From the sequence record PQ478073.1: a DNA stretch of 64,000 bases, one strand, 5' to 3'. Both the position numbers and the translations under genes were made by a program. Positions within the stretch are counted from its first letter, which is position 1; each line of letters starts with the position of its first letter. The DNA comes from a phage. Under the pieces are notes generated by a model. The model searched no databases. It was given only the letters and a program-made list of their open reading frames with translations, and was not told the DNA's origin. Positions 44,564-45,040 of this stretch are shown piece after piece.

Positions 44564-45040
44564 ATGATTCATGAACACCGAGGTAATCTGTTTGAATTAT
44601 TCAGTACTGTAACAGATGATAAAACAGCAATACATATAATTGCTCATGGTTGTAACGCACAGGGTAAAATGGGTTCAGGTTTTGCAAAAGAGCTAAGAAA
44701 TCGTTACCCAATGGCATATGATGATTATAAAGCATATGAAAAGGAAATGGGATTTCTTAGAATTGGACAAATTGCATATTCAGCAATTAACGATAATTTG
44801 ATTATTGCAAACTGTATTACCCAAAAAATGTACGGTAATGACGGTGCTAAATATGTCAGTTATGATGCAATCGACGATGTGTTCAAACATCTAAATTATT
44901 TTTGTAAAGTTGATCGAGATGTTCATGTACACTTCCCGAAAATTGGAGCCGATTTGGGCGGCGGTAACTGGAACGTTATCAAAGAAATCATTGATCACCG
45001 ACTGGTCAATGCAGAAAAACACTTATACATTCTAAAATAA
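44564..45040 (+). CDS. macro domain protein (ADP-ribose binding/processing)
   Basis: AHGCNAQGKMGSGFA and PKIGADLGGGNW motifs. Confidence 0.7.
   Translation: MIHEHRGNLFELFSTVTDDKTAIHIIAHGCNAQGKMGSGFAKELRNRYPMAYDDYKAYEKEMGFLRIGQIAYSAINDNLIIANCITQKMYGNDGAKYVSYDAIDDVFKHLNYFCKVDRDVHVHFPKIGADLGGGNWNVIKEIIDHRLVNAEKHLYILK

What the first reader, a model, noticed from the sequence alone, without database searches (positions are those of the whole stretch)
44564..45040. Macro-domain protein completing a dispersed ADP-ribose toolkit
The macro domain (GxGxxGG-type motifs) binds or hydrolyses ADP-ribose adducts. Together with Sir2 (3872), two Nudix genes (4621, 43335) and a WGR-domain protein (9567), the phage carries an unusually complete ADP-ribose-handling set, suggesting ADP-ribosylation-based host takeover or anti-defence.
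Basis: partly seen in the sequence, partly recalled or inferred. Interest (0 to 1): 0.55.

Follow-up and report, generated by a model that had tools for sequence, protein, structure and literature searches.

The report
Known phage macrodomain, likely anti-DarT enzyme
The gene is a real, already annotated macro-domain (ADP-ribose-removing) enzyme of a jumbo E. coli phage. It belongs to the same family as phage T4 Tk.4/AdfM, which protects phage DNA from the bacterial DarTG2 defence, and the proposed "ADP-ribose toolkit" is several unrelated, separately inherited modules.

Summary
**Observation: confirmed.**
- 44564-45040 (+) is a 158-aa ORF with a confident macro fold: AlphaFold2 pLDDT 95, and the top Foldseek hits are all macrodomains.
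- Pfam alone is below threshold (16.4 against 22 bits). A profile of homologs hits only ALC1-like macrodomains: BT1257, SCO6735, Poa1p, DarG and TARG1.

**Identity of the window and gene.**
- The window is an Asteriusvirus jumbo coliphage (UB/PBECO4/121Q, 99.9% identity), not a T4-like phage.
- The gene is already annotated "macro domain-containing protein", and is noted as tk.4-like in phage RaK2.
- It shares PHROG 335 with T4 Tk.4 (AdfM) and PhiKZ gp104 (AdfM).
- Like T4 Tk.4 and SCO6735, it has an invariant Gln (Q87) where DarG and TARG1 have the catalytic Lys.

**Most likely role (inferred):** a stand-alone DarG2-like glycohydrolase that removes ADP-ribose from thymidine in phage DNA, countering DarTG2.

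**The "toolkit" does not hold as a unit.**
- Sir2, the Nudt16-like Nudix, cREC and PIN-PhoH form a separate published module, predicted to act in RNA repair.
- The second Nudix belongs to the T4 nudE family.
- The WGR protein has no ADP-ribosyltransferase (ART) fold and is missing from about half of the genus.
- Macro domains occur in about 56% of jumbo phages.

The finding is ordinary and already known, so interest is low.

The parts
44564..45040 (+). Macro-domain gene (158 aa), member of the T4 Tk.4/AdfM family (PHROG 335). It is an ALC1-like macrodomain of the SCO6735/BT1257 type, with Gln87 at the catalytic position.
44554..44557 (+). GGAG ribosome-binding site, 6 nt upstream of the ATG.
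   Evidence: read from the sequence
44523..44546 (.). Perfect 10-bp stem with a 4-nt loop and T-runs on both strands (terminator-like), between the upstream small ORF and the macro gene.
   Evidence: A terminator feature is listed under the match for the phage G17 record, without a position.
43335..43733 (+). Context only: Nudix hydrolase of the T4 nudE family, separated from the macro gene by three small genes. The order CCA-adding enzyme / Nudix / glutaredoxin ... macro is conserved across RaK2-like jumbo phages.
3872..4624 (+). Separate module, not part of the macro function: Sir2 (sirtuin).
4621..5172 (+). Separate module: Nudt16-like Nudix. It lies next to an annotated Sir2 in most listed records and is restricted almost entirely to RaK2-like jumbo phages (75 records).
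5182..5502 (+). Separate module: cREC (cyclic-phosphate processing receiver) domain protein.
   Evidence: literature
5862..7301 (+). Separate module: PIN-PhoH protein that closes the Sir2 / Nudix / cREC block.
9567..10538 (+). Unrelated accessory gene. A C-terminal WGR domain (residues 256-322) follows a 250-aa N-terminal region with no known fold. There is no ART domain.

Best explanation
The gene encodes a stand-alone, catalytically competent macrodomain ADP-ribosyl glycohydrolase. It belongs to the ALC1-like class, SCO6735/BT1257 subtype, and is the Asteriusvirus member of the phage Tk.4/AdfM family.

**Proposed mechanism**
1. During infection of a DarTG2-carrying E. coli, the freed DarT2 toxin ADP-ribosylates thymidines in single-stranded phage DNA and blocks replication.
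2. The phage macrodomain binds the ADP-ribose through N31, the G34-G39 loop and the P125-G134 diphosphate loop.
3. Q87 positions the distal ribose, as Q85 does in SCO6735, and the enzyme hydrolyses the thymidine-ribose bond.
4. Free ADP-ribose is released and the template is restored.

**Shown here:** the fold, the class, family membership and conservation of the active-site residues.

**Inferred:** the substrate (ADP-ribosylated thymidine in DNA) and the anti-DarTG2 role.
For: **Fold and class**
- Fold confirmed.
- The family profile hits ALC1-like macrodomains almost exclusively; only faint viral nsP3 macrodomain matches (E about 0.007) fall outside that class.
- The only hit in the PADLOC defence library is DarG, at 1.4e-10; T4 Tk.4 scores almost the same, 1.3e-9.
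- The best NCBIfam hit is the DarG antitoxin model.

**Family membership**
- PHROG 335 holds this protein, T4 Tk.4 and PhiKZ gp104.
- hhalign of the family profile against T4 Tk.4 gives probability 99.6% and E 1.6e-24.

**Active site (Poa1p)**
- The catalytic column reads PTK in DarG and PhiKZ AdfM, ITQ in this protein, YTQ in T4 Tk.4, IGQ in SCO6735 and BT1257, and FTS in Poa1p.
- H28, G29, N31, G39, Q87, P125 and G128 are invariant in 54 homologs.

**Literature**
- A tk.4 knock-out sensitises T4 to DarTG2.
- PhiKZ AdfM removes DarT2-made ADP-ribose from DNA.
- SCO6735 needs Q85, de-modifies ADPr-thymidine DNA efficiently and rescues cells from DarT toxicity.

**Context**
- A homolog in an unrelated phage sits in an anti-defence-like island next to Gad2 and a SLOG gene.
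- The gene is kept at a fixed position in Asteriusvirus, Alcyoneusvirus (RaK2) and Eneladusvirus (BF).
Against: - Identity to T4 Tk.4 is only 28%, and macrodomain substrate specificity cannot be read from sequence (PMC9503650 says so explicitly).
- SCO6735 Lys34, which is important for DNA positioning, aligns with S38 here, and V25 aligns with G29.
- SCO6735 also de-modifies proteins, and Poa1p is a closer PDB sequence match than DarG.
- The gene lies just upstream of neck and tail genes, behind a terminator-like hairpin. No promoter signal rises above chance: 18 sites found against 19.5 expected. Early expression is therefore not shown.
- The T4 result comes from a preprint, and enzymatic removal by Tk.4 was inferred there, not measured.
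- No Asteriusvirus has been tested on DarTG2.
Confidence: 0.6

Rival explanations
1. The enzyme processes soluble ADP-ribose derivatives. It would act as a Poa1p/OARD1-like ADP-ribose-1''-phosphate phosphatase or O-acyl-ADP-ribose deacylase. Its substrates would be products of the phage Sir2 / Nudix / cREC module, or toxic or signalling NAD-derived molecules made by host immunity. A Nudix enzyme would then cleave the resulting ADP-ribose.
For: - Poa1p is a significant match: E 5e-16 by profile and Foldseek E 1.6e-10.
- The H of the HxCN motif, which is H23 in Poa1p, is conserved.
- Iyer et al. argue that phage Macro and Nudix domains mainly target soluble ADPr derivatives and co-occur more than expected by chance.
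- A nudE-like Nudix lies 0.8 kb upstream in conserved synteny.
- The phage carries the Sir2 / cREC module.
Against: - Poa1p has Ser at the catalytic column where this family has an invariant Gln, and Poa1p S30 aligns with K35.
- Iyer et al. note that the sirtuin RNA-repair neighbourhoods are not coupled to a Macro gene.
- T4 keeps Tk.4 although, from my own knowledge of the T4 genome, it has no Sir2 or cREC, and its genetic phenotype is DarTG2 sensitivity.
- Sir2 occurs widely without the macro gene, for example in T5-like phages.
Confidence: 0.2
2. The enzyme is a protein mono-ADP-ribosyl hydrolase, like TARG1. It would reverse ADP-ribosylation of phage or host proteins made by a host defence ART or by a phage ART.
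For: - TARG1 is a clear structural and sequence relative.
- SCO6735, which also has Gln at the catalytic position, hydrolyses automodified PARP1 as well as DNA adducts.
Against: - The TARG1 Lys84/Asp125 catalytic dyad is absent here (Q87).
- No ART is annotated in the 64-kb region.
- The only genetic data for this family point to DarTG2, a DNA modifier.
Confidence: 0.1
3. One reading: the macro gene, Sir2, both Nudix genes and the WGR protein form one coordinated ADP-ribosylation system used for host takeover.
For: - All five domain calls are correct.
- All five genes are on the same strand of one phage.
- The general idea of NAD/ADPr networks in jumbo phages is published.
Against: - The genes are up to 40 kb apart and fall into distinct conserved modules.
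- Their distributions across phages are independent.
- The WGR gene is an insertion/deletion within the genus, and its product has no ART fold.
- No ADP-ribosyl "writer" directed at host proteins was identified.
Confidence: 0.05
4. The protein is a non-catalytic ADP-ribose binder, or a stoichiometric DarT inhibitor that works by binding alone.
For: - Catalytically dead SCO6735 Q85A still inhibits DarT by interaction.
- AdfB of phage ICP1 neutralises DarT, likely by direct interaction.
Against: - Every residue tied to catalysis in the Gln-type enzymes (H28, N31, Q87 and the Gly loops) is invariant in 54 homologs. This argues for selection on enzymatic activity.
- There is no DarT-binding C-terminal domain; the protein is a single 158-aa domain.
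Confidence: 0.05

Closest known systems
Phage T4 Tk.4 = AdfM (anti-DarT factor macrodomain; bioRxiv 10.1101/2025.11.20.689424)
   Same: - Same PHROG 335; hhalign probability 99.6%.
- Stand-alone protein of about 155 aa.
- Shared IAHGCN...MGSG...TQ...P-x-IGA-x-G-x-GNW signature, including Gln at the catalytic column.
- Both score similarly against the PADLOC DarG model.
   Different: - Only 28% identity.
- The loop after Q87 is about 4 residues longer here.
- Different genomic context: the T4 tk region against a neck/tail-proximal block here.
- Function is untested in Asteriusvirus.
PhiKZ gp104 = AdfM (Cell Rep 2026, PMC13309987)
   Same: - A jumbo-phage stand-alone macrodomain in PHROG 335.
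- The Asn of the ADP-ribose site is conserved: N23 there, N31 here.
   Different: - PhiKZ AdfM is DarG-type, with Lys78 in a PTK motif. This protein has Gln87 in ITQ.
- Pairwise BLAST similarity is confined to a 26-aa stretch.
- PhiKZ AdfM is imported into a phage nucleus. Asteriusviruses are not chimalliviruses (taxonomy lines).
Streptomyces coelicolor SCO6735 (PDB 5e3b) and Bacteroides BT1257 (PDB 2fg1)
   Same: - Best PDB matches by sequence and by fold.
- Gln replaces the catalytic Lys; the H-x-C-N motif and the extended mobile loop are shared.
- SCO6735 removes ADP-ribose from thymidine in DNA and neutralises DarT.
   Different: - These are cellular, non-phage proteins.
- About 27-28% identity in the MAFFT alignment; 24-25% in the Foldseek alignments.
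- SCO6735 K34 aligns with S38 and V25 with G29.
- The mobile loop is one residue shorter here.
DarG2 antitoxin of DarTG2 systems (NCBIfam NF048014; PDB 5m31, 5m3i)
   Same: - Same macrodomain class.
- It is the top hit in NCBIfam and the only hit in PADLOC.
- The expected reaction is the same.
   Different: - No catalytic Lys, no C-terminal DarT-binding domain and no adjacent darT gene.
- The score of 33 bits is far below the 250-bit cut-off.
Yeast Poa1p, ADP-ribose-1''-phosphate phosphatase (PDB 6lfq-6lfu)
   Same: - Significant sequence and fold match.
- HxCN motif shared.
   Different: - Ser instead of Gln at the catalytic column, and S30 is not conserved.
- Poa1p has a large insertion before the last strand-loop.
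Human TARG1/OARD1 (PDB 4j5r)
   Same: ALC1-like fold, TM about 0.75; profile E 1e-11.
   Different: The Lys84/Asp125 dyad is absent; identity is 18-19%.

Membership tests
Macro domain superfamily (Pfam PF01661) | Three-layer alpha/beta/alpha macro fold | tested here: met
   The AlphaFold2 model has pLDDT 95 and pTM 0.90. The leading Foldseek PDB hits are all macrodomains; the only other entries among the top 50 are designed serine hydrolases (OSH55 series). The best hit has TM 0.84.
Macro domain superfamily (Pfam PF01661) | Significant sequence-profile similarity to macrodomains | tested here: met
   The single-sequence Pfam score is below the cut-off (16.4 against 22 bits). The family profile hits PDB macrodomains at 5e-27 to 1e-11, and many homologs carry precomputed PF01661 hits.
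Macro domain superfamily (Pfam PF01661) | ADP-ribose binding elements: conserved Asn after strand 2, a Gly-rich loop 1 and a diphosphate-binding Gly-rich loop 2 | tested here: met
   N31 and G39 are invariant and G34 is nearly invariant (G37 is not among the conserved columns listed); P125 and G128 are invariant and G133/G134 nearly invariant. These columns align to the same elements of DarG and SCO6735.
ALC1-like class, SCO6735/BT1257 (Gln-type) subclass | Gln at the position of DarG K80 / TARG1 K84 (SCO6735 Q85) | tested here: met
   Q87 is invariant in 54 homologs and aligned. The role of Q85 is described in PMC9411070.
ALC1-like class, SCO6735/BT1257 (Gln-type) subclass | Mobile loop after the catalytic position longer than in DarG/TARG1 | tested here: inconclusive
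   By my count on the alignment, the loop is 2 residues longer than in DarG and 1 shorter than in SCO6735. T4 Tk.4 has a shorter loop.
ALC1-like class, SCO6735/BT1257 (Gln-type) subclass | DNA-positioning lysines (SCO6735 K34, K89) | tested here: inconclusive
   K34 aligns with S38, although K35 is nearby. K88 and K96 lie in the mobile loop. Their equivalence cannot be decided without a complex structure.
AdfM (phage anti-DarT factor macrodomain) | Phage-encoded stand-alone macrodomain homologous to T4 Tk.4 / PhiKZ gp104 | tested here: met
   PHROG 335 holds all three proteins. hhalign gives 99.6% against T4 Tk.4. The protein is a single domain of 158 aa.
AdfM (phage anti-DarT factor macrodomain) | Removes DarT2-made ADP-ribose from thymidine in ssDNA | not testable with these tools
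   Needs a biochemical assay. The precedents are PhiKZ AdfM and SCO6735.
AdfM (phage anti-DarT factor macrodomain) | Gene needed for phage growth on DarTG2-carrying hosts | not testable with these tools
   Needs phage genetics. The precedent is the T4 tk.4 deletion.
DarG2 antitoxin (NCBIfam NF048014) | Score at or above the curated cut-off, two-domain architecture of about 330 aa with a DarT-binding C-terminal domain | tested here: not met
   32.9 bits against a cut-off of 250, and only profile positions 18-139 of 338 are matched. The protein is 158 aa.
DarG2 antitoxin (NCBIfam NF048014) | Catalytic Lys (K80) and an adjacent darT gene | tested here: not met
   Q87 replaces the Lys. The neighbours are small hypothetical genes, a Nudix, a glutaredoxin and neck genes.
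Poa1p-type ADP-ribose-1''-phosphate phosphatase | Residues probed by mutation in the Poa1p PDB entries (H23, S30) and the residue at the catalytic column | tested here: not met
   The H23 equivalent (H28) is present, but S30 aligns with K35, and the column is Ser in Poa1p against an invariant Gln here.
   The components are up to 40 kb apart. Record counts are 2125, 987, 1274, 75 and 18. The WGR gene is absent from about half of the genus, which keeps the macro gene. Within RaK2-like phages the macro gene and the Sir2 block are both conserved, but at separate fixed sites.
   [not shown]

The most novel reading that the evidence does not exclude
The Gln-type macrodomain is not, or not only, an anti-DarT enzyme. 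It would be the missing last step of the sirtuin-centred, NAD-dependent RNA-end repair pathway predicted for RaK2-like jumbo phages. In that pathway Sir2 removes the 2'-phosphate, cREC opens ADPr>P, the macrodomain dephosphorylates ADPr-1''P and a Nudix recycles the ADP-ribose. The pathway would be functionally distributed, with its genes at two fixed loci 40-50 kb apart.
Probability: 0.12. Interest if true: 0.5.

Novelty: already known. Interest (0 to 1): 0.18.

Why it matters
It matters little beyond annotation.

- The gene can be relabelled from "macro domain-containing protein" or "phosphatase" to a probable AdfM-type anti-DarTG2 factor. This is useful for predicting the host range of therapeutic jumbo coliphages on DarTG2-carrying E. 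coli.
- One mildly useful point for specialists: phage AdfM proteins come in two active-site flavours. PhiKZ is Lys-type like DarG. T4 Tk.4, this protein and its whole family are Gln-type like SCO6735. The counter-defence may therefore have been recruited from stand-alone cellular macrodomains rather than from DarG itself.
- The dispersed "toolkit" is not a discovery. NAD/ADP-ribose gene sets in jumbo phages, including orthologs of the Sir2 and WGR genes of this very genus, were catalogued in 2021-2022.

Tried and rejected
- **Pfam alone** gave a sub-threshold hit. I did not rely on it and replaced it with profile and structure evidence.
- **AdfB of phage ICP1** was read as a possible precedent. 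The passages read describe an antitoxin mimic that likely acts by direct interaction with DarT and do not describe AdfB as a macrodomain, and PMC13309987 states that no macrodomain anti-DarT factor had been reported before AdfM. It was dropped.
- **The Migulavirinae/Thoeris preprint** was read in case phage macrodomains degrade Thoeris signals. The macrodomain in that paper is the host ThsA, so it is irrelevant here.
- **The phAPEC6 virion proteome paper** does not mention macro, Nudix or Sir2, so it gives no evidence that the protein is packaged.
- **The promoter scan** around the gene found 18 sites against 19.5 expected, so no timing inference is possible.
- **The tRNA scan** of the window was empty.
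- **Direct record-by-record co-occurrence** across all phages could not be computed, because the search tool lists at most 60 records. I used total counts, genus-level counts and named counter-examples instead.
- **The PBECO4-to-window coordinate mapping** drifts by about 300 nt far from the macro gene because of indels, so all coordinates are taken from the window's own ORF list.
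Full report
**1. What is at the coordinates**

- A 158-aa ORF occupies 44564-45040 on the + strand, from ATG to TAA.
- A GGAG ribosome-binding site lies 6 nt upstream. A perfect 10-bp hairpin with T-runs on both strands lies at 44523-44546.
- The minus-strand ORFs overlapping the gene are 43-44 aa and have no support.
- The window as a whole is AT-rich (31-40% GC) with nearly all genes on the + strand.
- The 2.7 kb around the gene is 99.9% identical to Escherichia phages UB, JP4, PBECO4 and phAPEC6, and 99.1% identical to 121Q.
- The source is therefore an Asteriusvirus jumbo phage of about 350 kb, not a T4-like phage.
- In RefSeq PBECO4 the gene is gp028, "macro domain-containing protein". 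In 121Q it is gp544, "Appr-1-p processing domain protein". In RaK2 it was annotated in 2012 as "tk.4; similar to RB43 Tk.4".

**2. Is it a macro domain?**

- The single-sequence Pfam match to PF01661 spans the whole model but scores 16.4 bits, below the 22-bit cut-off. I looked for independent evidence.
- PHROG 335 ("phosphatase") matches at 1e-45.
- phmmer against PDB sequences finds BT1257 at 8e-16 and SCO6735 at 8e-12, then Poa1p and DarG.
- The large protein collection holds 167 homologs, many with precomputed PF01661 hits.
- A 54-sequence alignment (A1) used as a profile hits BT1257 (5e-27), SCO6735 (6e-21), Poa1p (5e-16), DarG (3e-13) and TARG1 (1e-11), and otherwise only faint viral macrodomains.
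- AlphaFold2 on that alignment gives pLDDT 95 and pTM 0.90.
- Foldseek against PDB returns the same order of macrodomains, best TM 0.84.

The protein belongs to the ALC1-like (TARG1/DarG/Poa1p/SCO6735) class.

**3. Which kind of ALC1-like macrodomain?**

I recovered the DarG, SCO6735 and BT1257 sequences from HMMER alignments. I fetched PhiKZ gp104 and T4 Tk.4 from their genome records. MAFFT places the catalytic column as follows:

| Protein | Motif at the catalytic column |
|---|---|
| T. aquaticus and M. tuberculosis DarG | PTK |
| PhiKZ gp104 (AdfM) | PTK |
| This protein | ITQ |
| T4 Tk.4 (AdfM) | YTQ |
| SCO6735 and BT1257 | IGQ |
| Poa1p | FTS |

- Q87, H28, G29, N31, G39, P125 and G128 are invariant across the 54 homologs.
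- PMC9411070 shows the following for SCO6735. It lacks the Lys of DarG and TARG1. Its Q85 at that position is essential. It removes ADP-ribose from thymidine in DNA more efficiently than DarG or TARG1. It rescues cells from DarT.
- This protein is therefore a Gln-type enzyme, like SCO6735 and like T4 Tk.4.
- Not everything fits: SCO6735 K34 aligns with S38 and V25 with G29.

**4. Link to known phage biology**

- A 2025 preprint found tk.4 as the single T4 gene depleted on a DarTG2 host. It showed that a clean knock-out sensitises T4 to DarTG2 and named the protein AdfM.
- A 2026 Cell Reports paper independently named PhiKZ gp104 AdfM. [quoted passage not shown]
- The window protein, T4 Tk.4 and PhiKZ gp104 all fall in PHROG 335.
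- hhalign of A1 against T4 Tk.4 gives 99.6% probability and E 1.6e-24.
- In the PADLOC defence library the only hit for both the window protein and T4 Tk.4 is DarG, at 1.4e-10 and 1.3e-9.
- The family is very common. tblastn finds a homolog in 2125 of 50,697 phage records. These include T4-like, Felixounavirus, V5-like, phi92-like and Pseudomonas and Vibrio phages.
- Iyer et al. 2022 report Macro domains in 56% of jumbo phages and 41% of myoviruses.

**5. Genomic context**

- A fixed gene order is conserved in RaK2 (63% identity), in a metagenomic jumbo phage (about 43% identity) and in Serratia phage BF. The order is lysozyme, HPF, CCA-adding enzyme, nudE-like Nudix, glutaredoxin, (YqeY), small ORFs, macro, small ORFs, neck protein, dNMP kinase, tail sheath.
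- This is lineage-wide collinearity, not proof of an operon.
- In an unrelated 127-kb phage contig, a homolog lies between HD_4, a circularly permuted YpsA/SLOG gene and Gad2, the anti-Gabija protein. That resembles an anti-defence island.
- Expression timing could not be inferred, because promoter-like sites are no more frequent than in shuffled sequence.

**6. The "toolkit"**

All four other domain calls are right, but the genes fall into separate modules.

- **(a) Sir2 block.**
  - It comprises Sir2 (3872-4624), the Nudt16-like Nudix (4621-5172), cREC (5182-5502), a small membrane protein and PIN-PhoH (5862-7301).
  - These form a contiguous block with the same order as Serratia phage BF gp112-115.
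  - BF is the exemplar that Iyer et al. use for a predicted sirtuin-centred, NAD-dependent RNA-end repair system. They note it is not coupled to a Macro gene.
  - The Nudt16-like Nudix occurs in only 75 records. Nearly all are jumbo phages of about 350 kb, and most listed records show an annotated Sir2 next to it.
- **(b) Second Nudix (43335-43733).** It belongs to the T4 nudE family, with 1274 records. From my own knowledge, T4 NudE hydrolyses FAD, Ap3A and ADP-ribose.
- **(c) WGR protein.**
  - It occurs in 18 records.
  - A DNA comparison shows the gene is an indel. It is absent from 121Q, JP4, CRJP21, E9.1, SHEFM2K, the Salmonella SD phages and ph0011, all of which keep the macro gene.
  - Its Ecwhy_1 ortholog QAY00573.1 is cited by Iyer et al. 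2021 as a WGR DNA-binding transcription factor.
- **(d) Sir2 and the macro gene are distributed independently.**
  - Sir2 is found in 987 records, including T5-like siphoviruses. Only about 1% of siphoviruses have a Macro domain.
  - The macro gene is abundant in Pseudomonas, Rheinheimera, Acinetobacter and Aeromonas phages. These are absent from the ten largest Sir2 host groups.
  - Within the RaK2-like clade both are conserved, but at separate fixed loci 40-50 kb apart. That is shared ancestry and cannot show a functional link.
- No ADP-ribosyltransferase is annotated among the coding sequences of the region.
- The general notion of NAD/ADP-ribose networks in jumbo phages is already published, with examples from this genus.

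**7. Verdict**

- The most likely function is an AdfM-type, Gln-active-site ADP-ribosyl glycohydrolase that strips DarT2-made ADP-ribose from thymidines of phage DNA (confidence 0.6).
- Fold, class, family membership and active-site conservation are shown. Substrate and biological role are inferred from T4 Tk.4, PhiKZ AdfM and SCO6735.
- The main rival is processing of soluble ADP-ribose derivatives, either Poa1p/OARD1-like or feeding the Sir2 / cREC / Nudix pathway (0.2). It cannot be excluded by sequence.
- Protein de-mono-ADP-ribosylation (0.1), the integrated takeover toolkit (0.05) and a non-catalytic binder (0.05) are less likely.
- The gene is already annotated, its family is widespread and its function has recently been characterised in model phages. 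This is an ordinary, known feature.

Noticed in passing
window 44523-44546: A perfect 10-bp stem with a 4-nt loop (AAGGACTCTG-ACCA-CAGAGTCCTT) and T-runs on both strands, 17 nt before the macro start codon. It looks like a bidirectional intrinsic terminator inside a same-strand gene block. Terminator-like sites are mildly enriched in 41800-46300: 5 found against 1.8 expected.
   Followed up: partly
[not shown]
   Followed up: partly
window 3872-7301: A contiguous block of Sir2, Nudt16-like Nudix, cREC, a small membrane protein and PIN-PhoH, in the same order as Serratia phage BF gp112-115. This is the published but experimentally untested sirtuin-centred, NAD-dependent RNA-repair prediction. 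By eye, the Sir2 keeps the catalytic His (LHG) but seems to lack the four-Cys zinc ribbon.
   Followed up: partly
window about 40180-43230, and L006 1045-6492: Translation-related genes cluster just upstream of the macro gene. PBECO4 annotates an HPF/RaiA ribosome hibernation factor in the syntenic position, and the window has a CCA-adding tRNA nucleotidyltransferase at 42111-43223. More distant relatives also have YqeY (annotated tRNA amidotransferase) and a PTH2-like peptidyl-tRNA hydrolase. There are no tRNA genes in this 64-kb window.
   Followed up: no
L008 3186-6500 (ENA contig k141_93252, 127 kb): In an unrelated phage contig, a macro homolog (P0086) sits between genes for a circularly permuted YpsA/SLOG protein, an HD_4 protein and Gad2 (anti-Gabija). 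This is a candidate anti-defence island worth mining.
   Followed up: no
window 45051-45758: Two small conserved genes directly downstream of the macro gene (PHROG 527 and PHROG 14786, both of unknown function) keep their position next to it in RaK2, BF and a metagenomic relative. The second has only a weak, sub-threshold Csx1 CARF-like Pfam hit (E 0.023).
   Followed up: no
literature: PMC7824862, accession QAY00367.1 (outside the window): The same paper that cites the WGR ortholog of Ecwhy_1 also cites a NADAR protein whose accession falls in the same series as the Ecwhy_1 proteins checked. I did not confirm that it belongs to that genome. If it does, Asteriusviruses probably carry both AdfN-like (anti-DarTG1) and AdfM-like (anti-DarTG2) enzymes. 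This was not checked in sequence.
   Followed up: no
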